From NCBI GenBank assembly GCA_036170975.1, contig JAVHQE010000064.1, forward strand, positions 1-52,641: a stretch of DNA of 52,641 bases, in the 5' to 3' direction. Every line of letters begins with the position of its first letter. Position 1 is the stretch's first letter. The notes under the pieces were generated by a model that was not told where the DNA came from, did not search any database, and was given only the letters and a program-made list of their open reading frames with translations. Source of the DNA: Minisyncoccota bacterium (GTDB taxonomy: Bacteria > Patescibacteriota > Minisyncoccia > Phycocordibacterales > UBA1550). Shown here in pieces: positions 22,411 through 34,430 of the stretch. The position numbers and the translations under genes were made by a program.

Positions 22411-22950
22411 ATGAATAGAAAATTACAAATTGGGGTTATGGGGTCTGCACAAGATCTTAATTATGGTGATGCTTTGCGTGACCTTGCGCGAGAAATAGGA
22501 AAAGAGGTTGCCCGTAGCGGTAATATTGTTCTGTATGGAGCAGAGAAAGATTACGACTCTCTTTCTACTCAAGCAGCAAAAGGAGCAAAAGAAGAAGGGG
22601 GTACAACTGTCGGGGTTACTTACGGGAAAGGGAAAGATATTTGGGAACAGGAAGGGTTTACTGACATTCTTATTGTCACAGGATTAGAAAGAGGGGGTGG
22701 CCGTGAATTTGTTTTAGTAAATTCATGCGACGCTATTATAGCGATATCTGGCGGGTCAGGGACTCTTACTGAAATAGCAATTGCTTATCAATCAAACATC
22801 CCTATCGTTGTTATGGCGAATACTGGAGGTTGGGCGGAAAAATTAGAAGGAGAATATCTTGATACGAGGAGTAGAATAAAAGCTGAAGTCGCCCATACTC
22901 CAAAGGAGGCAGTTGAAAAAGCGATAAGATTTTGCGATTTTAAAAAGTGA
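22411..22950 (+). CDS. LOG/SLOG-fold protein (TIGR00725-like Rossmann nucleotide-binding protein)
   Basis: N-terminal IGVMGSA and the ISGGSGTLTEIAIA (GGxGTxxE) signature of the LOG/lysine-decarboxylase-like family. Confidence 0.7.
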   Translation: MNRKLQIGVMGSAQDLNYGDALRDLAREIGKEVARSGNIVLYGAEKDYDSLSTQAAKGAKEEGGTTVGVTYGKGKDIWEQEGFTDILIVTGLERGGGREFVLVNSCDAIIAISGGSGTLTEIAIAYQSNIPIVVMANTGGWAEKLEGEYLDTRSRIKAEVAHTPKEAVEKAIRFCDFKK

Positions 22951-23031
22951 TTTTTGTTGCGTTAATCCTTACGGTATGGTAGCCTTGACAGGGGTTCTTT
23001 CTACTATGGTTCATATTTCTGGAGGTTTATT

Positions 23032-23997
23032 GTGAATAGTTCAACTAGCTTTTCTGGTAACGGCAGTCATCACCGACACTTTTCTGGGACACACTATGTG
23101 GTTTCCGAGGACGTCGATATCCTTGTTTCTCGTTGGTGCAAAAGAAAAGGATTCATCCCACCTAGCCTTGATTTTTATGTTTCTCAACGCGCTCGGACGA
23201 AAGCCTTTCTTCAGAATATCTTTGCGCGAGTTACTTTTATCGACGGGAAAGAGATACAGAATGGGTTGATTGCTTCTGTAGCTCAGCATAAAAAGAACGG
23301 TCTCATCGTGGTTGGCCTTGAACGGGTCTACCTCGAGGACTCTTTTTTTGATGCACGTATTGAAATTACACGAAGTGTTGATGGCGACAGAAGAGATATT
23401 CAGATTCCTATGCCACGCAAAGGCACACCTTCGAAGCGTGTCCAGTTCGAACAACTTCGAGGGAAGAACATTGCTCTGGTTGACGATGTGGTATTTTCTG
23501 GAAAAACACTCGTAGGTACGATTTCTGAACTCCATAAGTATCACGTAAATGTTCACGCAGTTACAGCAGCGATCGGTGTAAAAAATGGCGTGGATTACTT
23601 GAACAATGCGCAATTTGCTATTAGGGGGATGCCAGACCACCTGATTGTTCATTGTTTGGAAGAGTTTGATGGTGTAAGCGATCAGATTTGCGAAAGAGAT
23701 CTTTATCCAGGTGTTCCGTATTCAGGGCGTGAATTTTTTGGTGTTGAGAACTTCTCGTTCCCGTACGTGTACCCTTTTGGGCAGGTTCAGGAGTGGGCGT
23801 CAATTCCTGAAAAAGAAGCCAAACAATTCTCGCTCATTTGCCTTGAAAACACGATTGCACTGTTTGAAGAGATACAGAACTTAAATAATGTAGTCCTTAC
23901 ATGCCAAAATGTTCCAAGGCCTGTGTTCGGTTCTCCGAAAGACAGCACTCCATTCGTTTCGTTTCTTAAGGAGAAATGTGCATTATGTTTGAGTTAA
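23032..23997 (+). CDS. phosphoribosyltransferase-domain protein with unassigned N- and C-terminal regions
   Basis: GTG start 6 nt after GGAGG. PRPP-binding loop NIALVDDVVFSGKTL. About 130 aa upstream and about 150 aa downstream of the loop have no recognisable motif. Confidence 0.6.
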   Translation: MNSSTSFSGNGSHHRHFSGTHYVVSEDVDILVSRWCKRKGFIPPSLDFYVSQRARTKAFLQNIFARVTFIDGKEIQNGLIASVAQHKKNGLIVVGLERVYLEDSFFDARIEITRSVDGDRRDIQIPMPRKGTPSKRVQFEQLRGKNIALVDDVVFSGKTLVGTISELHKYHVNVHAVTAAIGVKNGVDYLNNAQFAIRGMPDHLIVHCLEEFDGVSDQICERDLYPGVPYSGREFFGVENFSFPYVYPFGQVQEWASIPEKEAKQFSLICLENTIALFEEIQNLNNVVLTCQNVPRPVFGSPKDSTPFVSFLKEKCALCLS

Positions 23998-24013
23998 GGT
24001 AATTTTTAGTTTT

Positions 24014-24052
24014 AGGGCCTATTACTTGTTAATAAGTAGTAGGCCCTTTTTT
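24014..24052 (+). terminator. rho-independent terminator
   Basis: agggcctattactt / aagtagtaggccct stem (14 bp, one G-U), 6-nt loop, T run. Confidence 0.8.
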
Positions 24053-24112
24053 ATTTTTATATAAATTTAAAGAAAAATTATTTGCGTTTTGCCATGGTTT
24101 TTGTTCTTTATT

Positions 24113-25048
24113 ATGAGTATGCTACAATTTATTAATAAAAGTTGTAGGTTTTTAATTTTTCAAAATATGAAAGTTTCCATTGATGATGATAATAGTATTG
24201 GGTACGAAAGGAATAGTTTACTTAAATCTTTTTTTAATAAACTTTATATACCATTTTTAAACCTCCTCCCTTCAAGTGCCCGAGGCTTTGTAAAGAATAC
24301 GCATACCTCTGCAAGAAATGTCATTGAAAAAGCAACGACTCATCACGCTATTGAGATTTTATATAAGTTTGGGGAACCTGAGAAGTCAAAAACGCTTCTT
24401 CAGAAGTTTTTTCATTATATCTGGTTCACTACGGATAATTCAAAAGCCGTACGAAATCGTTTACGGCTAGTCACCAAGAAATTAAAAGATGCGATTGCGG
24501 TACATCTTGCTTCTGGTAAACGAGTGAAAATATTAAGCGTAGCCGCGGGGTCAGCGCGCGCGATCCTCGATGCTACTTACATGCATGACCTAAAAGAGGT
24601 GGGGGCAGATGTTACCTTTTTGGATAAAAATCCGCAAGCGCATATCTATAGCAAGGGGCTTATCGAGAGTCGTCATTATAACAAAAATTATAAGTTTAAC
24701 TGGGTCGTTGACACTGCAAACAATTTCCCTCATTACTTTAAAGATGCTGGTAAGCCTAACATTATTGAGATTGTCGGATTATTGGACTATTTTGATGAAG
24801 CGGGGATCAAGAGATTATTTACTTCTGTTTTTCAAAATCTTGAGCAGGGGGGAGTTTTTATTACTTCAAATATCGTAGATAATCCAGAGCGTAGATTTAT
24901 AACAAAAGTAGTTGGTTGGCACATGCTTTACAAAAGACCTGAAGATTTTTACAAGATCGCACGAGAAGTTGGGTTCAAAGATGAAGAGCTGGAGTTTATT
25001 TATGAACCATTCAAGATTCATTTTATTATGATCGCGAACAAATCATAA
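24113..25048 (+). CDS. class I SAM-dependent methyltransferase-like protein
   Basis: Motif I-like VKILSVAAGSARAILDA, acidic FLDKNP, and post-I/II elements (IIEIVGLLDYF, GGVFITSNI). Start uncertain (track TTG 24089; ATG 24113 or 24167). Confidence 0.6.
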   Translation: MSMLQFINKSCRFLIFQNMKVSIDDDNSIGYERNSLLKSFFNKLYIPFLNLLPSSARGFVKNTHTSARNVIEKATTHHAIEILYKFGEPEKSKTLLQKFFHYIWFTTDNSKAVRNRLRLVTKKLKDAIAVHLASGKRVKILSVAAGSARAILDATYMHDLKEVGADVTFLDKNPQAHIYSKGLIESRHYNKNYKFNWVVDTANNFPHYFKDAGKPNIIEIVGLLDYFDEAGIKRLFTSVFQNLEQGGVFITSNIVDNPERRFITKVVGWHMLYKRPEDFYKIAREVGFKDEELEFIYEPFKIHFIMIANKS

Positions 25049-28610: not shown

Positions 28611-29612
28611 ATGCATACCACTGAAACAATCCTTTCGGGCATTCGTGCTACAGGAAGGCTCCATTTTGGAAACTTCCTTGGCGCAGTTCAAAACTTCGTT
28701 AAATTCCAGCAACCCGGGAATACGTGTCTTTACTTCATCGCAGATTGGCATACCCTGACCACCCTTCAGAACCCTGAAGAGCTTCGGGGAAACCTGATCG
28801 AGATAGTGAAGGACTACATTGCCGCGGGTCTCGACCCAGAGCAGTCGACTATCTACGCTCAATCAAGTGTTCCGGAAATTTCGGAGCTTTGTTTGTACTT
28901 GAGTATGATTCAACCACTCGGAGACCTGGAGAGAATCCCAACGTTCAAGGATCTTATCCGTAAGAACCCTGACAATGTGAATTTAGGAATCGTCACATAC
29001 CCAGTTCTTATGGCGGCTGACATCTTAGGGCCGAAGGCGACATTTGTTCCAGTTGGTGAAGATCAGGTTCCAAATGTTGAACTTGCACGGGCCTTGGCTC
29101 ACAAGTTTAATAGTCGTTTTGGGGAAACGTTTATTATCCCCAACATGATGCAGCAAATGATTCGGGTGCCTGGTCTCGACGGAAGCAAGATGGGAAAGTC
29201 GGAATCGGATAATGCAATTGATATAAATTCCCCGATTTCTGTAATCAGGGAGCGTTATCTCAAAAAGGGGGTTACGGATATAGAGCGTAAACGCGCTTCG
29301 GATCCGGGTGACCCCTATGGTCGTTGTCAATCTGTGTACCCCGTACACGAGTTGGTTACGGCTGGCGAAACCGAAACACGAACTATTGCGAATGCTTGTC
29401 GCACCGCTCAGATAGGGTGCAAAGAATGTAAACATCGACTTGTAGACGGCATCGCCAAGATATTGGAACCGTTCCAAGCAGCACGCGCTGAACTTTCTGA
29501 AAAGGATGACTATATCGAAGAAATCCTCCATGAAGGTGGCAAAAAAGCACGTGTGATGATTTGCGAAACAACTATGGATGTCCGCGAGAAAATGGGCATC
29601 GTTATCTATTAA
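28611..29612 (+). CDS. trpS: tryptophan--tRNA ligase, paralog 1, with a Cys4 (4Fe-4S-type) motif
   Basis: HFGN (HIGH-like), KMGKS (KMSKS-like), and C-x23-C-x6-C-x2-C (GRCQSV...NACRTAQIGCKECK). The coding sequence is GC-rich. Confidence 0.85.
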   Translation: MHTTETILSGIRATGRLHFGNFLGAVQNFVKFQQPGNTCLYFIADWHTLTTLQNPEELRGNLIEIVKDYIAAGLDPEQSTIYAQSSVPEISELCLYLSMIQPLGDLERIPTFKDLIRKNPDNVNLGIVTYPVLMAADILGPKATFVPVGEDQVPNVELARALAHKFNSRFGETFIIPNMMQQMIRVPGLDGSKMGKSESDNAIDINSPISVIRERYLKKGVTDIERKRASDPGDPYGRCQSVYPVHELVTAGETETRTIANACRTAQIGCKECKHRLVDGIAKILEPFQAARAELSEKDDYIEEILHEGGKKARVMICETTMDVREKMGIVIY

Positions 29613-29637
29613 CTCAAATAAGTGAAAGGAGAATGTT

Positions 29638-30828
29638 ATGGAACAACAGCTCTTAAAATCCGAGAACCTTGATCTCAAGGAACTCGGGAAGCGTCTTTAT
29701 GGTGTGGATATGCTCATCGTTGCATTATTGAAGCGTCGGATGGATCTGGCTCTTCAAGTAGGCGAGTACAAGATCGAAAAAGGACAAAAGATTTTTCGCG
29801 CAAGCGTTGAGTCGAAACGACTAGCTCAGGTACGAGCTGAGGCACGCAGGTGCAAGTTAAGCCCGCATTTTGCCGCATCAATCTTGTATCAGGCTATCGA
29901 TGAGTCCTGTAAGCAGCAAATGATTCAATTGCAGAATGCAGCTACCTGCCGTCGCAAACGTCCAAAGACTGAAGACGATTGGTACCGCTTACTGAAAAAG
30001 AATTTGTTGCTTTTAGCAAAGCGGTGGGCTTATTCTTACGACGAGGACTATGACAAAGCTTTCTTCGCGACACACACCTATCTCGAGTTTGAGGAAGAAA
30101 TTCTTAAGCAAGAAATAAAGCAGGTTGCCAGAAATGGGCTTGCTTTGGATCTAGGGTGTGCGACGGGCAGGTTAGCCGTAAAGCTCACGTCTTCGTTTGA
30201 CCAGGTCGTCGGCTACGACATAAGCCCTCACATGGTAAAGAAGGCTAATGAAAAGACGGGCGAATTTCCAAATCTTTCTTTTGTCGAAGCTGACATAGAA
30301 AATGGAATTCCTCTGCCAGATAATTCGGTGTCGTTGGTGGTCATGAATCTTGGGACTGCGAGTGACATTCGTGATATTTCTGGAGTTCTCAAAGAAGTTG
30401 AGCGTGTTCTCGAGACAGGCGGAAGATTTTTCTTTTCGTTCTACAATCGGGATGGGCTCTTGTATCAGTGGGACTTTGTTCCTTGGCCAGTTGGGCTTGC
30501 TGCTGAAATTAATGTTCATAAGCATTGCTTGGATGTCCATGTGGGCGCAAAGGTTTTATCTGTGTACGCACGTCCGTATAGCGTTAAAGAAGTAGAAAGT
30601 TTGTTCTCGTCGTCGATGAAGGTTTTAAAAGTTCTGACACATCCAACGATTAGTTCAATTCTTCCGCATACTTTGTTTGAGGGGAAGCCAGCTATTCAGA
30701 AGTCGATGGTAGATATCGATCGCCAGCTTTCAATAGCGAGTCATGGTGCATACATTTTGGACACGATTGTCGGGTGGGCCAGCCGTTGTTTTGGTTTATG
30801 TGCGAAATCGATGAGTGTGCGTGCATAA
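29638..30828 (+). CDS. fusion of a chorismate mutase type II (AroQ) domain and a class I SAM-dependent methyltransferase domain
   Basis: N-terminus LGKRLYGVDMLIVALLKRRMDLALQVGEYK...FRASVESKRL is AroQ-like. Later ALDLGCATGRLAVKL (motif I) and VVMNLGT, GGRFFFSF. AGGAGA SD-like sequence upstream. Confidence 0.7.
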   Translation: MEQQLLKSENLDLKELGKRLYGVDMLIVALLKRRMDLALQVGEYKIEKGQKIFRASVESKRLAQVRAEARRCKLSPHFAASILYQAIDESCKQQMIQLQNAATCRRKRPKTEDDWYRLLKKNLLLLAKRWAYSYDEDYDKAFFATHTYLEFEEEILKQEIKQVARNGLALDLGCATGRLAVKLTSSFDQVVGYDISPHMVKKANEKTGEFPNLSFVEADIENGIPLPDNSVSLVVMNLGTASDIRDISGVLKEVERVLETGGRFFFSFYNRDGLLYQWDFVPWPVGLAAEINVHKHCLDVHVGAKVLSVYARPYSVKEVESLFSSSMKVLKVLTHPTISSILPHTLFEGKPAIQKSMVDIDRQLSIASHGAYILDTIVGWASRCFGLCAKSMSVRA

Positions 30829-30914
30829 ACATGAGGATGATGTAGGTCTTCGAAACTCAGGCTTGTGTAAGGCTTGGGTTTCTTTTTATAAACGGGTATC
30901 ATGTAGTAAATACT

Positions 30915-31721
30915 ATGAAGATAGAATACGATAAACAAGTTCAGGGAGGTGGTGGTGAAAATATCCTAGTTATTGGGTGTGTTCACGGAGATGAATTGAT
31001 TGGAGAGAAAGTAATCAAGGAACTTCGTAAACTCACTGTTCAAAATGGGACGTTAGTGACTGTGATTGCAAATACGCGCGCGATGAAAGAAGGCAAGCGG
31101 GTTATTGACCAAGACCTCAATCGGGTATTCCCAGGGAACCCGCAAGGAAACCACGAGGAACAGTTGGCGCACTCGCTAATCCCGTTATTAAAAGAAGTTG
31201 ATATTGTTTTGGATATTCACTCGACGACAACAGACACCACTTCAGCAATTATTCTTACAAAAGTAAATCAATCTATCAAGCAACTGCTTTTAGTTTTTAA
31301 TCCCAAGAAGGTTGTTGTGATGGAAAAGAAAGTTGGAAAAACTGCGCTTACTGGGTTTTGTAAAGCAGGTATTTCTTTTGAGTACGGTAAGGATAAAAGC
31401 GAGAAGGCATACAAAGAAACTCTTATGGATATCATAAAAATCCTTGAAGGATACGGAGTGATAAAAGGAAAGAAAAAAAAGATATCTAAACCTACACATA
31501 AAACAGAATATTTTGAGGTACTTGGTGTACTCGTTCGACCAAATGGTTTAAAACTTGAGAAAAAGATAAAAAACTTTTCACTTGTGCGAAAAGGGGAGGT
31601 TGTCGCTAGAGGTGGCGTGCATCTGCAAAAAGCACCACGCAATTTTTATCCACTTTTGTTTGGCCCCGTATCATATAAAGAGATTTGGGGTTTTATGGCA
31701 AAGAAAGTAAAGAGTATTTAA
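30915..31721 (+). CDS. succinylglutamate desuccinylase/aspartoacylase family (M14-like) metallohydrolase
   Basis: VIGCVHGDELIGEKV, DLNRVFPGN and LDIHST motifs, typical of the AstE/AspA family. Confidence 0.75.
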   Translation: MKIEYDKQVQGGGGENILVIGCVHGDELIGEKVIKELRKLTVQNGTLVTVIANTRAMKEGKRVIDQDLNRVFPGNPQGNHEEQLAHSLIPLLKEVDIVLDIHSTTTDTTSAIILTKVNQSIKQLLLVFNPKKVVVMEKKVGKTALTGFCKAGISFEYGKDKSEKAYKETLMDIIKILEGYGVIKGKKKKISKPTHKTEYFEVLGVLVRPNGLKLEKKIKNFSLVRKGEVVARGGVHLQKAPRNFYPLLFGPVSYKEIWGFMAKKVKSI

Positions 31722-31791: not shown

Positions 31792-32763
31792 ATGAAGAAA
31801 ACACTATTAGCGGGGATACAACCATCGGGAACTGTCCATATCGGTAATTATTTTGGTGCAATGCGCCAGTTTGCTGACCGTCAGGACGACTACCAGCAGT
31901 TTATTTTTATTGCAAACTATCATGCACTTACGAGTGTTTCTGACGGGGAAAAGCTTAAGAGACTTACTCTTGAAGTTGCGATGGATTATCTTGCTATTGG
32001 TGTTGATCCAAAAAAGACCGCAATATTCATGCAGTCTGATGTTCCCGAGGTTACCGAGCTTGCGTGGATTTTCAATACTATTACTACAGTACCATACCTC
32101 GCACGCGCGACTGCGTTCAAAGATGCTGAGGTAAAAAACAAAGAAGTGAATGTCGGGCTTTTTGATTACCCTATTCTCATGGCGGCAGATATATTGATAT
32201 ACAGTGCTGACGTGGTTCCTGTAGGGCTTGATCAAAAGCAACATATTGAGATTGCACGTGACACAGCGCAAAAGTTCAATCGCGTGTTTGGCGACACGTT
32301 CAAGACTCCAGAACCAATGATTCTTGAAAATGTTAAAACTGTTCCTGGCACCGATGGTCGCAAAATGAGTAAAAGTTACGGAAACACAATTCCGCTTTTT
32401 GGAACTGATGAAGAAATCAGGAAGGCCGTAATGAGTATCCCCACAGATTCGAAGGGTGTCGAGGAGCCAAAAGACCCAAATGGTTGCAAGGTGTTTGCAA
32501 TGCACGAGCTTTTTCCTGGTGACGAGCTGGAAGCACTTCGCACACGTTATCTTGCAGGGGGTATTGGCTATAAGGAGTCAAAGGATTTATTGGTGGCAAA
32601 AATAATCAACTTTATTTCGCCGATGCGTACACGCCGTGAGGAGATTGCGCGTAATCCTGACGCTGTGCTAAAAATCTTGAAAGAGGGTGGGGAAGTGGCA
32701 CGTGCAGAAGCTCAAAAGAAGATGCAAGAAGTGCGAGAGAAAGTGGGGTTAACTTTAAAATAA
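31792..32763 (+). CDS. trpS: tryptophan--tRNA ligase, paralog 2 (housekeeping-like)
   Basis: GTVHIGNYFGA (HIGH), KMSKS, no Cys cluster. Base composition resembles the surrounding genes. Confidence 0.9.
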   Translation: MKKTLLAGIQPSGTVHIGNYFGAMRQFADRQDDYQQFIFIANYHALTSVSDGEKLKRLTLEVAMDYLAIGVDPKKTAIFMQSDVPEVTELAWIFNTITTVPYLARATAFKDAEVKNKEVNVGLFDYPILMAADILIYSADVVPVGLDQKQHIEIARDTAQKFNRVFGDTFKTPEPMILENVKTVPGTDGRKMSKSYGNTIPLFGTDEEIRKAVMSIPTDSKGVEEPKDPNGCKVFAMHELFPGDELEALRTRYLAGGIGYKESKDLLVAKIINFISPMRTRREEIARNPDAVLKILKEGGEVARAEAQKKMQEVREKVGLTLK

Positions 32764-33032: not shown

Positions 33033-34430
33033 ATGGAACGAACATACGTTAAAGACTTAAAAGAGAAAATCGGGCAGGAAATATCTATTTCTGGGTGGGT
33101 TGATGTTCGTCGTGATCAAGGGAAGATGGTTTTTATCGACTTGCGTGATGTCACCGGCAAAGTCCAAGCAGTCGTTCTTCCTATGCATACCGAGGCACTT
33201 GAGGTCGCACAGCGTGTTCGCCCAGAGTGGGTGGTATCTGTGTCTGCTAAGGTAAATAAACGCCCTGATCGTAATATTAAAGAAGGCGTATTGAATGGGG
33301 ACATTGAACTTGAAGTTTTAAATATTGAGGTTTTGAATGAAGCGCAGACACCACCGATGGATGTAACTTCAGACGGTCACGAAATTGGTGAAGAAACGCG
33401 CCTTAAATATCGCTACCTTGACCTTCGTCGTCCCCGCCTTCAGCATAATTTGCGTTTACGTCATGCAATCGCGCTTTATGTACGCAATTTTCTTTCAAAT
33501 CGTGGATTTATTGAAATAGAAACTCCTCTCCTTACCAAATCAACCCCCGAGGGTTCTCGAGACTATGTGGTACCTTCACGTATTGAACAAGGAAAGTTCT
33601 ATGCGCTTCCGCAATCACCCCAACAATACAAACAGTTACTTATGGTTGCAGGTATGGAGCGATATTTTCAAGTTGCGCGTTGCATGCGTGACGAGGATAC
33701 TCGTGGCGACCGTCAGCCAGAGTTCACTCAGCTTGATATGGAGCTTTCCTTTGCAACTCAGGAGGACATTATGAAGCTCAACGAGAAACTTTTGATTGAA
33801 CTTGTACAAACTTTGACCCCCGAAAAGAAAATTCAAACGATCCCATTTCCGCGTATTACCTATAAAGAGGCAATGGAAAAATATGGCAATGATAAGCCTG
33901 ATATGCGTGAAGACAAAAATGACCCTAACCTTTTGGCATTTTGTTGGGTTATCGATTTTCCTTTTTTTGAAAAAGACAAAATGGGAGGATGGACGTTTAC
34001 TCACAATCCGTTTTCTGCGCCACAGCAAGAGCACTACGAAGATTTAATGCAAAAGAAAAATATTGGGGATATTCTTGCTACGCAGTATGATATTGCGCTT
34101 AACGGTTTTGAGATTGGTGGTGGGAGTATTCGTAATCATCGCCCTGAGTCGCTCATCAAAGTTCTCGAGATTATGGGGCATACCGAAGAAAACATTCGCT
34201 CAAATTTTGGGCATATGCTTGATGCGTTTTCGTATGGCGCGCCTCCTCACGGTGGTATTGCCTGGGGACTCGACAGGCTTGTGTCGTTACTTACGAATGA
34301 GCCAAATATTCGTGAAGTTATTGCATTTCCAAAGACAGGCGAAGGTCGCGACCTCATGATGGAGGCACCGTCTGAAATTAGCGCAGAGCAGTTGCAGGAG
34401 TTGGGGGTAGGGATTTCAAACAGGAAATAA
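33033..34430 (+). CDS. aspS: aspartate--tRNA ligase, short form without the bacterial insertion (GAD) domain
   Basis: OB-fold N-terminus, FYALPQSPQQYKQLLMVAGMERYFQVARCMRDEDTRGDRQPEFTQLDME, class II motif 3 GGIAWGLDRL. 465 aa. Confidence 0.9.
   Translation: MERTYVKDLKEKIGQEISISGWVDVRRDQGKMVFIDLRDVTGKVQAVVLPMHTEALEVAQRVRPEWVVSVSAKVNKRPDRNIKEGVLNGDIELEVLNIEVLNEAQTPPMDVTSDGHEIGEETRLKYRYLDLRRPRLQHNLRLRHAIALYVRNFLSNRGFIEIETPLLTKSTPEGSRDYVVPSRIEQGKFYALPQSPQQYKQLLMVAGMERYFQVARCMRDEDTRGDRQPEFTQLDMELSFATQEDIMKLNEKLLIELVQTLTPEKKIQTIPFPRITYKEAMEKYGNDKPDMREDKNDPNLLAFCWVIDFPFFEKDKMGGWTFTHNPFSAPQQEHYEDLMQKKNIGDILATQYDIALNGFEIGGGSIRNHRPESLIKVLEIMGHTEENIRSNFGHMLDAFSYGAPPHGGIAWGLDRLVSLLTNEPNIREVIAFPKTGEGRDLMMEAPSEISAEQLQELGVGISNRK

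What the first reader, a model, noticed from the sequence alone, without database searches (positions are those of the whole stretch)
29638..30828. Chorismate-mutase/SAM-methyltransferase fusion protein encoded next to the extra TrpRS
A single 396-aa ORF joins an AroQ-type chorismate mutase domain (residues about 10-95) to a class I methyltransferase (motif I LDLGCATG). It starts 25 nt after trpS paralog 1 and has an AGGAGA SD-like sequence. No other aromatic-amino-acid biosynthesis gene is in the window, and CPR genomes generally lack that pathway, so a classical role in Phe/Tyr synthesis is doubtful. AroQ-fold domains also act on isochorismate or serve as regulatory domains. Pairing with a methyltransferase and a dedicated TrpRS hints at small-molecule (aromatic or indole-related) modification with a self-resistance synthetase. 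That interpretation is speculative.
Basis: partly seen in the sequence, partly recalled or inferred. Interest (0 to 1): 0.6.

Follow-up and report, generated by a model that had tools for sequence, protein, structure and literature searches.

The report
TrpRS-linked chorismate-mutase-like methyltransferase fusion
This gene really does join a remodelled chorismate-mutase-type domain to a SAM methyltransferase, and across many tiny-genome bacteria it travels as a pair with an extra iron-sulfur-type tryptophanyl-tRNA synthetase (often with its own tRNA-Trp gene), so it most likely serves tryptophan-tRNA handling, by an unknown chemistry, and not aromatic amino acid synthesis.

Summary
ORF 29638-30828 encodes an AroQ/CM_2 domain followed by a class I SAM methyltransferase (MT). 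It starts 25 nt after a TrpRS paralog (TrpS1), has an AGGAGA Shine-Dalgarno sequence, and is followed by a terminator-like hairpin.

The family is conserved in Patescibacteria but rare: 4 of 201 sampled genomes of the class. It is tightly tied to TrpS1.
- A Cys4 (4Fe-4S-type) trpS lies within 800 nt in 31 of 44 related loci, in three different orientations.
- In the class sample, TrpS1-type genes occur only in genomes that have the fusion, and always adjacent to it.
- 15 of the 25 tRNA genes in those loci are tRNA-Trp.

None of 41 fusion-bearing genomes has chorismate synthase or a chorismate-binding enzyme. The AroQ pocket keeps Arg28, Lys39, Glu52, Ser84 and Gln88 equivalents but has moved Arg11' and Arg51.

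Outside the CPR, the same MT subfamily is fused to a YbaK-type aminoacyl-tRNA deacylase domain, again next to trpS in some loci.

My best reading (about 0.4) is a methyltransferase acting on Trp-tRNA(Trp), tRNA(Trp) or bound tryptophan together with TrpS1. The antibiotic/self-resistance reading is neither supported nor excluded.

I found no paper describing this family. This scan had already noted it on other genomes (e1-801966, e1-1295996, e1-1012232, e1-1296364, e1-4899694).

The parts
28611..29612 (+). trpS paralog 1 (TrpS1): accessory TrpRS with a C-x23-C-x6-C-x2-C (4Fe-4S-type) motif; first gene of the module
   Evidence: TIGR00233 trpS scores 250.6 bits against a cut-off of 176.75. It is 39% identical to paralog 2. 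Cys239, 263, 270 and 273 are kept in all module-linked orthologs, together with GIRATGxLHFGN and KMGKS. The motif matches that of the T. maritima Fe-S TrpRS (PMC2954223).
29627..29632 (+). AGGAGA Shine-Dalgarno-like sequence, 5 nt before the ATG, inside the 25-nt spacer 29613-29637
   Evidence: Read directly from the sequence.
29638..30828 (+). CM-MT fusion gene (396 aa, P0001)
29656..29946 (+). Remodelled AroQ (CM_2) domain, residues ~7-103, three helices
   Evidence: Pfam CM_2 at 6.2e-16. Profile match to 1ecm at 5.6e-11. Model helices at 13-48, 55-71 and 76-103. Invariant residues: R19, D24, R34, K45, E58, R61, C91 and Q94.
29971..30774 (+). Class I SAM methyltransferase module, residues ~112-379: helical cap, Rossmann core and family-specific C-terminal elements (FSFYN, PW, TYPTxSxxLP, GAYI)
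   Evidence: Pfam Methyltransf_11/25. Foldseek best hits are TM1389 (2avn), Hvo_0019 and CmoM. A distinct subfamily of 139 representatives at E<=1e-30. hhalign against the MT-YbaK group gives probability 100 and E 5.5e-66.
30760..30828 (+). Aberrant 3' tail of this copy: the last ~22 codons and stop are unlike the GAYIIVTGxK* end of relatives
   Evidence: Alignments. DNA alignment to L002. The tail is not repeated elsewhere in the genome.
30852..30892 (+). Terminator-like hairpin (13-bp stem, T-run) that closes the trpS1/CM-MT pair
30915..31721 (+). AstE/AspA-family (succinylglutamate desuccinylase/aspartoacylase-like) deacylase; a frequent but not universal neighbour of the module
   Evidence: Pfam AstE_AspA_cat at 1.3e-22. 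Labelled AstE among the three nearest genes in 18 gene slots of the related loci. Within 5 kb in 9 loci by strict tblastn.
31792..32763 (+). trpS paralog 2 (TrpS2): cluster-free, canonical TrpRS, probably the housekeeping enzyme
   Evidence: TIGR00233 at 314 bits. It lacks the Cys motif. Most fusion-bearing genomes hold two trpS genes over the cut-off.

Best explanation
The ORF encodes a real, conserved two-domain protein. It joins a remodelled AroQ-type (chorismate-mutase-fold) domain to a class I SAM methyltransferase (MT) of a distinct, undescribed subfamily. It is the second gene of a two-gene accessory module whose first gene is a [4Fe-4S]-motif TrpRS (TrpS1). In many other genomes the module also carries its own tRNA-Trp(CCA) gene.

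It is not part of Phe/Tyr biosynthesis.

The most likely mechanism is inferred, not shown. TrpS1 activates tryptophan and charges tRNA-Trp. The MT domain then methylates a tryptophan-derived substrate at or near the aminoacyl end of tRNA-Trp. That substrate could be Trp-tRNA(Trp), the tRNA 3' end, or enzyme-bound Trp.

The AroQ-like domain would dimerise the enzyme and hold a carboxylate-bearing ligand in its cationic pocket. Non-CPR relatives carry a YbaK-type aminoacyl-tRNA deacylase domain as the accessory domain, at the C-terminus where the CPR form has the AroQ-like domain at the N-terminus.

Shown here: the domain architecture, the operon layout, the conserved linkage to TrpS1 and tRNA-Trp, the YbaK fusions, and the absence of chorismate synthesis.
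Inferred: the substrate, the atom methylated, and the role of the AroQ-like domain.
For: Linkage to TrpS1:
- A TrpS1-type gene lies within 800 nt of the fusion gene in 31 of 44 loci from different species. It is co-directional in 20, divergent in 7 and convergent in 4. Four more loci have it within 2.3-8.7 kb.
- In an even sample of 201 genomes of the class, the fusion occurs in 4. TrpS1-type genes (E<=1e-80) occur in 3, all of them fusion-bearing and adjacent.
- All module TrpS1 orthologs keep the four Cys.
- Pairwise identities of TrpS1 and the fusion correlate (Mantel r=0.45, p=0.002). In L034 the adjacency is kept although TrpS1 is 90% and the fusion only 42% identical to the window's copies.

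Linkage to tRNA-Trp:
- 15 of the 25 tRNA genes in the 44 loci are tRNA-Trp(CCA), and 10 lie within 400 nt of the fusion gene.
- 11 such genomes hold a second, different tRNA-Trp elsewhere.

Rosetta-stone evidence:
- The same MT subfamily (hhalign probability 100, E 5.5e-66 over the whole MT module) is fused at its C-terminus to a YbaK/tRNA_edit domain with its Lys and GxxxP-type loop conserved.
- In L050 and L053 that fusion gene is followed at a 2-nt gap or a 4-nt overlap by a trpS gene.
- L057 has tRNA-Trp, YbaK, an Fe-S-motif TrpRS, the MT and a standard TrpRS in a row.
- YbaK-like genes also occur in CPR loci L006 and L007.

Against a metabolic chorismate mutase:
- 0 of 41 fusion-bearing genomes have chorismate synthase or Chorismate_bind.
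- The canonical Arg11' position is an invariant Gly17, and Arg51 is variable.

Structural neighbours of the MT include the tRNA methyltransferase CmoM and a Trm112-partnered MT.
Against: - The MT domain is acidic (median pI 5.1, median net charge about -10 over 84 relatives). That is unusual for a protein that grips a whole tRNA.
- Most sequence and structure neighbours are small-molecule methyltransferases or of unknown function.
- The AroQ pocket keeps the equivalents of Arg28, Lys39, Glu52, Ser84 and Gln88 invariant or nearly so. It also has extra invariant Arg19 and Arg61 and nearly invariant Arg54. It therefore still looks like a working site for a chorismate-like dicarboxylate.
- Prephenate dehydratase is more frequent in fusion-bearing genomes (11 of 41) than in the class sample (15 of 201).
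- The window's own genome shows only one tRNA-Trp and no YbaK domain.
- No biochemical or expression data exist; only DNA runs hold this sequence.
Confidence: 0.4

Rival explanations
1. Small-molecule reading. The remodelled AroQ pocket binds, and perhaps rearranges, a free aromatic carboxylate such as tryptophan, indole-3-pyruvate, an arylpyruvate or a chorismate-like compound taken from a host. The MT methylates it. TrpS1 is the synthetase that tolerates, discriminates against, or uses the methylated product.
For: - The MT domain is acidic and its conserved positions are rich in aromatic residues (Y134, Y138, Y269, Y276, W278, W283, Y314, Y372) together with D243 and E152. This suits a small cationic or aromatic substrate.
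- The nearest sequence neighbours include amino-acid-derivative N-methyltransferases (OvoM/OvsM, phosphoethanolamine N-methyltransferases).
- Deacylase or dipeptidase genes that could release free amino acid lie nearby: AstE/AspA-like in CPR loci and an M20 dipeptidase in L057.
- Pairing of an extra aaRS with biosynthetic genes is a known pattern in antibiotic gene clusters (my own knowledge, for example indolmycin and a resistant TrpRS).
Against: - The core is only two genes, in 0.6-1.2 Mb genomes with almost no biosynthesis.
- No other biosynthetic genes are consistently linked.
- Linked tRNA-Trp genes and YbaK-type deacylase fusions are not expected for a free-metabolite pathway.
- TrpS1 keeps the canonical Trp-binding motif YPVLMAADIL, as TrpS2 does. 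There is therefore no visible resistance or specificity change.
Confidence: 0.25
2. Sensor or regulator. The AroQ-like domain is a ligand-sensing and/or TrpRS-docking domain that binds Trp, prephenate or a similar signal, as regulatory AroQ-derived domains do in DAHP synthases and in yeast chorismate mutase. It controls an MT that methylates TrpS1 or another protein.
For: - AroQ-fold domains are known as regulatory or partner-binding modules (my own knowledge: B. subtilis-type DAHP synthase, the M. tuberculosis CM-DAHPS complex, and the Trp/Tyr allosteric site of yeast CM).
- The linkage to TrpS1 is strict.
- An earlier scan note reports a CM-like domain fused to a TrpRS-like protein in another phylum (e1-2821150; not tested here).
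Against: - No test of a protein-protein contact was possible.
- The invariant Lys45, Gln94 and Glu58 suggest chemistry or tight ligand binding, not mere docking.
- The YbaK-fused relatives point to an RNA-ester substrate.
Confidence: 0.12
3. Genuine chorismate mutase coupled to prephenate-dependent SAM chemistry, in the manner of CmoA. The AroQ domain makes prephenate from imported chorismate, and the MT-fold domain uses it with SAM (for example to form carboxy-SAM) for a tRNA or Trp modification.
For: - Five canonical catalytic residues, including Lys39 and Gln88 equivalents, are kept.
- CmoA is a class I MT-fold enzyme that consumes prephenate (my own knowledge).
- Prephenate dehydratase is present in 27% of fusion-bearing genomes against 7.5% of the class sample, which hints that prephenate exists in some of these cells.
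- CmoM is among the closest structures.
Against: - The CmoA model TIGR00740 scores only 20.7 bits at this locus against a cut-off of 193.3.
- None of 41 genomes has chorismate synthase.
- Arg11' and Arg51 are not at their canonical positions.
- The YbaK-fused relatives carry out the same MT function without any CM domain.
Confidence: 0.08
4. Ordinary chorismate mutase of Phe/Tyr biosynthesis that happens to be fused to an unrelated methyltransferase.
For: The Pfam CM_2 match is above the gathering score.
Against: - No chorismate synthase or Chorismate_bind enzyme in any of 41 genomes. No prephenate dehydratase in this genome.
- The active site is remodelled.
- The fusion and its trpS linkage are conserved.
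Confidence: 0.03

Closest known systems
AroQ-class chorismate mutases (Pfam CM_2, PF01817; E. coli P-protein mutase domain, PDB 1ecm) and their fusions (CM-prephenate dehydratase, CM-prephenate dehydrogenase, CM-DAHP synthase)
   Same: Both have a three-helix AroQ fold of about 95 residues. The gap-free profile match to 1ecm scores 5.6e-11. Equivalents of Arg28, Lys39, Glu52, Ser84 and Gln88 are conserved.
   Different: The canonical Arg11' position is an invariant Gly, with an invariant Arg two residues later. Arg51 is not conserved, while a nearly invariant Arg54 and an invariant Arg61 are new. The fusion partner is a methyltransferase. The host genomes lack chorismate synthesis. The genomic partner is trpS and not aromatic-pathway genes.
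MT-YbaK fusions and stand-alone members of the same methyltransferase subfamily (P0338, P0351, P0363, P0372, P0377 and others), all uncharacterised
   Same: The whole MT module, including the helical cap and the C-terminal substrate-side elements, is shared (hhalign probability 100, E 5.5e-66, 35% identity). They recur next to trpS and, in L057, tRNA-Trp.
   Different: They carry a C-terminal YbaK/tRNA_edit domain (or none) where the CPR form has an N-terminal AroQ-like domain. They occur in non-CPR DNA of 30-65% GC. The adjacent TrpRS lacks the Cys4 motif in L050 and L053.
[4Fe-4S] TrpRS of Thermotoga maritima (TM0492; PMC2954223)
   Same: The partner gene TrpS1 carries the same type of motif, C-x(21-24)-C-x6-C-x2-C, in the anticodon-binding domain. 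That paper already notes that in organisms with several TrpRS genes only one carries the motif.
   Different: That paper does not describe a linked methyltransferase or tRNA gene. In T. maritima this enzyme is charged with ordinary tRNA-Trp aminoacylation.
tRNA-dependent amino-acid transformation systems and auxiliary aaRS/tRNA cassettes (GatCAB, SepRS/SepCysS, Met-tRNA formyltransferase, pylT-pylS-pylBCD); named from my own knowledge as a functional analogy only
   Same: A dedicated synthetase, often with a dedicated tRNA gene, is encoded next to an enzyme that could modify the amino acid.
   Different: No homology to any of them. The anticodon is the ordinary CCA. No evidence that the amino acid is modified on the tRNA.
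CmoM / Trm9-type and TM1389-type Methyltransf_11 enzymes (PDB 8joz, 4htf, 6f5z, 2avn)
   Same: These are the best structural matches of the MT module (TM-score by target 0.70-0.76).
   Different: Sequence identity is only 18-20%. The family-specific motifs are absent from them. The substrate cannot be transferred from them.

Membership tests
AroQ chorismate mutase (CM_2, PF01817) | Match to the family HMM above the gathering score | tested here: met
   58.8 bits against a cut-off of 27, residues 23-94. Family profile against 1ecm gives 5.6e-11.
AroQ chorismate mutase (CM_2, PF01817) | Three-helix AroQ fold | tested here: met
   The AF2 model has helices at 13-48, 55-71 and 76-103 with pLDDT around 90-98. 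The dimeric state was not modelled.
AroQ chorismate mutase (CM_2, PF01817) | Catalytic and binding residues Arg28, Lys39, Glu52, Ser84, Gln88 (EcCM numbering) | tested here: met
   R34, K45, E58 and Q94 are invariant and S90 is nearly invariant over 84 relatives.
AroQ chorismate mutase (CM_2, PF01817) | Arg11' (from the partner subunit) and Arg51 at canonical positions | tested here: not met
   Arg11' aligns with the nearly invariant Gly17 in gap-free alignments to four canonical mutases (1ecm, 3rmi, 1ybz, 2gtv). Arg51 aligns with a variable position (Val57 here). Arg19 and Arg61 (invariant) and Arg54 (nearly invariant) lie nearby.
AroQ chorismate mutase (CM_2, PF01817) | Substrate available: a chorismate-producing pathway in the organism | tested here: not met
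   Chorismate synthase in 0 of 41 and Chorismate_bind in 0 of 41 fusion-bearing genomes, including this one (92.8% complete).
AroQ chorismate mutase (CM_2, PF01817) | Chorismate-to-prephenate activity | not testable with these tools
   Needs an enzyme assay.
Class I SAM-dependent methyltransferase (Methyltransf_11/25) | HMM match, glycine-rich motif I, acidic residue after strand 2, Rossmann fold | tested here: met
   PF08241 at 7.9e-20. LDLGCATG at 170-177. D194 nearly invariant and D219 invariant. Foldseek probability 1.00 to many class I methyltransferases.
CmoA (carboxy-SAM synthase, TIGR00740) | Match to the equivalog model above its cut-off | tested here: not met
   20.7 bits at 30103-30315 against a cut-off of 193.3.
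UbiE/MenG quinone C-methyltransferases (TIGR01934) | Match above the cut-off | tested here: not met
   52.7 bits against a cut-off of 158.35.
TrpRS-linked MT subfamily (undescribed; defined here by P0001:105-375 relatives at E<=1e-30) | Family-specific motifs (YDxxYD..FAT, FSFYN, PW, TYPTxSxxLP, GAYI) and a neighbouring trpS | tested here: met
   The window copy has every motif except the last strand after GAYI.

The most novel reading that the evidence does not exclude
TrpS1, its private tRNA-Trp (where present) and this methyltransferase form a tRNA-dependent tryptophan-modification system. Tryptophan is methylated while esterified to tRNA-Trp. The product is then either used by the ribosome at UGG codons or released. 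Release would be by the YbaK-type domain in non-CPR relatives, and by an unknown route involving the AroQ-like domain in CPR. This would be a previously unknown pretranslational amino-acid modification pathway in ultra-small bacteria.
Probability: 0.15. Interest if true: 0.9.

Novelty: new variant of a known kind. Interest (0 to 1): 0.68.

Why it matters
Patescibacteria with genomes of 0.6-1.2 Mb discard almost everything non-essential. Even so, a scattered subset keeps a second TrpRS with an Fe-S motif, often a second tRNA-Trp, and this fusion enzyme.

Working out what the methyltransferase does could have several consequences:
- It would explain why an Fe-S TrpRS exists alongside a normal one.
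- It would give a first function for a chorismate-mutase fold in organisms that cannot make chorismate.
- It might reveal a new reaction on aminoacyl-tRNA or on tryptophan.
- The recurrent swap between an AroQ-like domain and a YbaK-type deacylase domain on the same methyltransferase is a concrete, testable clue.

Tried and rejected
- Classical CM role: rejected. No chorismate synthase or Chorismate_bind in 41 genomes.
- CmoA-like carboxy-SAM synthase: the CmoA model scores far below its cut-off. Kept only as a low-probability rival.
- Prephenate-dependent U32 hydroxylase partner: Peptidase_U32 is present in only 7 of 41 genomes and not in this one.
- T-box or other riboswitch in front of the module: no Rfam match anywhere in the window, and only tRNAs in 8 related loci.
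- tRNA gene in the window: none. The genome's only detected tRNA-Trp is on another contig.
- Mobile repeat as the source of the odd 3' tail: the tail is unique in the genome.
- Literature: no paper links a CM-MT fusion, Patescibacteria and TrpRS. The PIRSF paper does not mention such a fusion.
- ESM Atlas: only generic methyltransferase neighbours.
- Transcription evidence: only DNA runs hold the stretch, so co-transcription is inferred from layout only.
- L047-L049, which matched only the CM part, are ordinary CM genes (L047 is CM plus prephenate dehydratase). They were left out of the counts.
- The metagenome scan with MT-YbaK proteins returned mostly generic methyltransferases. Only L081-L086 were true relatives, on short contigs.
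Full report
**1. The observation**

ORF 29638-30828 on the + strand is open and encodes 396 aa.
- Pfam finds CM_2 (AroQ chorismate mutase) at residues 23-94 (6.2e-16). It finds the Methyltransf_11/25/31 group at about 169-270 (about 1e-19).
- NCBIfam gives only sub-threshold, generic methyltransferase and chorismate mutase hits.
- The upstream gene 28611-29612 is a tryptophan-tRNA ligase (TIGR00233, 250.6 bits). A second one lies at 31792-32763 (314 bits). The two are 39% identical.
- The spacer between trpS paralog 1 (TrpS1) and the fusion is 25 nt, with AGGAGA at 29627-29632.
- A terminator-like hairpin with a 13-bp stem follows the fusion at 30852-30892. By layout the two genes therefore look like a bicistronic unit. 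No RNA data exist to show this; only DNA runs hold the stretch.
- AlphaFold2 with an 84-sequence alignment gives a confident model (pLDDT 90.7, pTM 0.86). It has three long helices followed by a capped Rossmann methyltransferase.
The only correction is that this copy's last ~22 residues differ from all relatives.

**2. The family**

- The word-indexed protein search found 336 relatives. Nearly all are 373-385 aa with the same two domains, from Parcubacteria/Paceibacteria-type metagenome bins.
- A scan of one genome per species returned 44 loci with a full-length relative.
- The family is nevertheless rare. In an even sample of 201 genomes of the window's class only 4 carry it, this genome included.
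- phmmer of the methyltransferase (MT) part alone against 1.84 billion cluster representatives gives 139 proteins at E<=1e-30 and 275 at E<=1e-10, and then merges into generic methyltransferases. The MT is therefore a distinct subfamily.

**3. Is it a chorismate mutase?**

- Homology to AroQ is secure. The profile against 1ecm gives 5.6e-11 with no gaps over residues 7-98.
- Retained are the equivalents of EcCM Arg28, Lys39, Glu52 and Gln88 (R34, K45, E58, Q94), invariant over 84 sequences, and Ser84 (S90), which is nearly invariant.
- The position of Arg11' is a nearly invariant Gly17 in alignments to four canonical mutases. The position of Arg51 is variable.
- The family has its own invariant Arg19 and Arg61 and nearly invariant Arg54, plus an ESCK motif.
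- The pocket is therefore conserved and cationic, but remodelled.
- None of 41 fusion-bearing genomes has chorismate synthase or any Chorismate_bind enzyme, while all 14 control genomes do. The window's genome (864 kb, 92.8% complete) has one CM_2 domain, this one.
- Prephenate dehydratase occurs in 11 of 41 fusion-bearing genomes but not in this one. It occurs in 15 of 201 genomes of the class sample. This is a weak hint, not corrected for phylogeny, that prephenate matters in some lineages.
- Peptidase_U32 is present in 7 of 41 genomes.
- The CmoA model scores 20.7 bits against a cut-off of 193.3.
- A classical role is thus very unlikely, and a CmoA-type role has no positive support.

**4. 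The link to TrpRS**

- tblastn of the window's neighbours against the 44 loci shows a TrpS1-type gene within 800 nt of the fusion gene in 31 loci. It is co-directional upstream in 20, divergent in 7 and convergent in 4.
- Four more loci have it within 2.3-8.7 kb. Three of the nine loci without one lack upstream flank. L023 has a different TrpRS type 31 nt downstream.
- Every module-linked TrpS1 keeps Cys239, Cys263, Cys270 and Cys273, together with GIRATGxLHFGN and KMGKS. TrpS2-type genes lack the cysteines.
- The motif is the C-x(21-24)-C-x6-C-x2-C motif of the [4Fe-4S] TrpRS of Thermotoga maritima. The authors of that structure already noted that only one copy carries it in organisms with several TrpRS genes (PMC2954223).
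- Most fusion-bearing genomes have two trpS genes above the model cut-off.
- In the same 201-genome class sample, TrpS1-type genes (E<=1e-80) occur in only 3 genomes. All three are fusion-bearing and have the genes adjacent.
- TrpS1 orthologs are much more conserved than the fusion (median pairwise identity 66% against 41%). The two identity matrices correlate (Mantel r=0.45, p=0.002). L034 combines a TrpS1 that is 90% identical to the window's with a fusion that is only 42% identical, so adjacency survives discordant histories.

**5. The link to tRNA-Trp**

- ARAGORN finds 25 tRNA genes in the 44 loci, of which 15 are tRNA-Trp(CCA). Ten lie within 400 nt of the fusion gene.
- A covariance model of these tRNAs, followed by ARAGORN on the best extra hits, shows that 11 such genomes also hold a second tRNA-Trp(CCA) elsewhere.
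- The module copies encode the 3' CCA and share an unusual D-arm. Most of the other copies encode no CCA.
- The window itself has no tRNA gene. Its genome shows a single tRNA-Trp on another contig.
- No T-box or other Rfam family is present in the window.

**6. A Rosetta-stone clue**

- Among the MT-subfamily representatives, a group of proteins of about 450 aa lacks the AroQ domain. These carry a C-terminal Pfam tRNA_edit domain (YbaK/ProX aminoacyl-tRNA deacylase). The conserved Lys and the G-x-x-x-P-type loop are intact.
- Profile-profile comparison shows that the whole MT module is the same subfamily (probability 100, E 5.5e-66, 35% identity), including the helical cap and the C-terminal elements.
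- In two non-CPR contigs (GC 47% and 65%) this MT-YbaK gene is followed, at a 2-nt gap or a 4-nt overlap, by a trpS gene.
- In L057 (GC 30%) the order is M20 dipeptidase, tRNA-Trp, stand-alone YbaK, Fe-S-motif TrpRS, stand-alone MT, standard TrpRS.
- YbaK-like genes also sit in two CPR loci, one directly after TrpS1.
- A caspase-MT-YbaK protein lies in an island with a reverse transcriptase, PRTase-CE, NUDIX, an integrase and HicAB.
- Several other MT-YbaK contigs are too short or show no trpS, so this linkage is recurrent but not universal.

**7. What it most likely does**

- Shown: a conserved enzyme with an intact SAM site, partnered with an accessory Fe-S-type TrpRS, often with a tRNA-Trp. 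In relatives it is physically fused to a domain whose known job is to bind and hydrolyse the aminoacyl end of tRNA.
- Inferred: the MT acts on tryptophan in the context of tRNA charging. The substrate would be Trp-tRNA(Trp), the tRNA 3' end, or TrpRS-bound Trp. The AroQ-like domain would provide dimerisation and a carboxylate-binding pocket.
- I put this at about 0.4.
- Against it: the MT domain is acidic (median pI 5.1). Its closest structures are a mix of small-molecule enzymes, enzymes of unknown function, and a few tRNA methyltransferases such as CmoM.
- The free small-molecule reading (Trp, indolepyruvate or a similar compound, with TrpS1 as the matching synthetase) stays at about 0.25.
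- A sensor/regulator role is at about 0.12, a CmoA-like prephenate chemistry at about 0.08, and ordinary Phe/Tyr synthesis at about 0.03.

**8. Other neighbours**

- Frequent but not universal neighbours are AstE/AspA-like deacylases (present in the window at 30915-31721), a TrpD-like phosphoribosyltransferase paired with a BtpA/SgcQ TIM barrel (14 loci), a YbdK/GCS2-like ligase (10 loci), and 7TM histidine kinases.
- The window's genome lacks the TrpD-like, BtpA and GCS2-like genes.
- These agree with earlier scan notes of a larger tryptophan-centred gene set (e1-1296364, e1-4899694). I did not work out their role.

**9. Novelty**

- Full-text searches found no description of a CM-methyltransferase fusion, of its trpS linkage, or of MT-YbaK fusions.
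- The domains are known kinds. The combination, its remodelled AroQ site in chorismate-less organisms, and the TrpRS/tRNA-Trp/YbaK association are not described.
- This scan had already met the same family on other genomes (e1-801966, e1-1295996, e1-1012232, e1-1296364, e1-4899694). The present window is a further, minimal copy consisting of TrpS1, the fusion and an AstE-like gene.
- I rate it a new variant of a known kind, with interest 0.68.

Noticed in passing
window 30760-30828: This copy of the fusion gene has a unique 3' end. The last ~22 codons replace the family's GAYIIVTGxK* ending. The DNA diverges abruptly from the 87%-identical relative L002, and the tail is not repeated elsewhere in the genome.
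   Followed up: partly
window 33033-34430: The aspS gene encodes a 465-aa bacterial-type AspRS. It matches the 590-aa equivalog model in two stretches, so it appears to lack the usual insertion domain.
   Followed up: no
window 22411-25048: A SLOG (LDcluster4) protein, a protein with weak PRTase / PRTase-CE hits and a Methyltransf_20-like protein lie upstream of the two 7TM histidine kinases. A PRTase-CE gene also lies in the island that holds the caspase-MT-YbaK relative (L054). A homolog of the Methyltransf_20-like gene sits near the module in L018, and a SLOG gene next to TrpS1 in L041.
   Followed up: no
L015, L026, L028, L035, L038, L042, L043 and others; second copies in L061-L072: Eleven fusion-bearing genomes of 0.6-1.2 Mb hold two different tRNA-Trp(CCA) genes. 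The module-linked copy encodes the 3' CCA and has a GGTTAGCGGCTAAACC-type D-arm. The other copy mostly encodes no CCA.
   Followed up: partly
L054:5482-8676 and L055:808-4002: An 891-aa caspase (Peptidase_C14)-MT-YbaK protein follows a stand-alone YbaK-like gene. It sits in an island with a reverse transcriptase, PRTase-CE, NUDIX, a phage integrase fragment and HicAB, which looks like a defence or mobile context.
   Followed up: no
L003, L004, L010, L016, L027, L035, L045 and others (14 loci): A TrpD-like Glycos_transf_3 protein (153.8 bits, below the trpD cut-off of 199) is paired with a BtpA/SgcQ TIM-barrel protein close to the module. A YbdK/GCS2-like ligase occurs in 10 loci. All three are absent from the window's genome.
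   Followed up: partly
41 fusion-bearing genomes (G000-G043): Prephenate dehydratase is present in 11 of 41 fusion-bearing genomes although none has chorismate synthase. The class-wide sample has it in 15 of 201.
   Followed up: partly
L034:8163-10302: TrpS1 is 90% identical to the window's copy, but the adjacent fusion gene is only 42% identical. One of the two genes was replaced while adjacency was kept.
   Followed up: partly
L057:2321-8003: In 30%-GC DNA the order is M20 dipeptidase, tRNA-Trp, stand-alone YbaK, Fe-S-motif TrpRS (C-x21-C-x6-C-x2-C), stand-alone MT of the same subfamily, standard TrpRS.
   Followed up: partly
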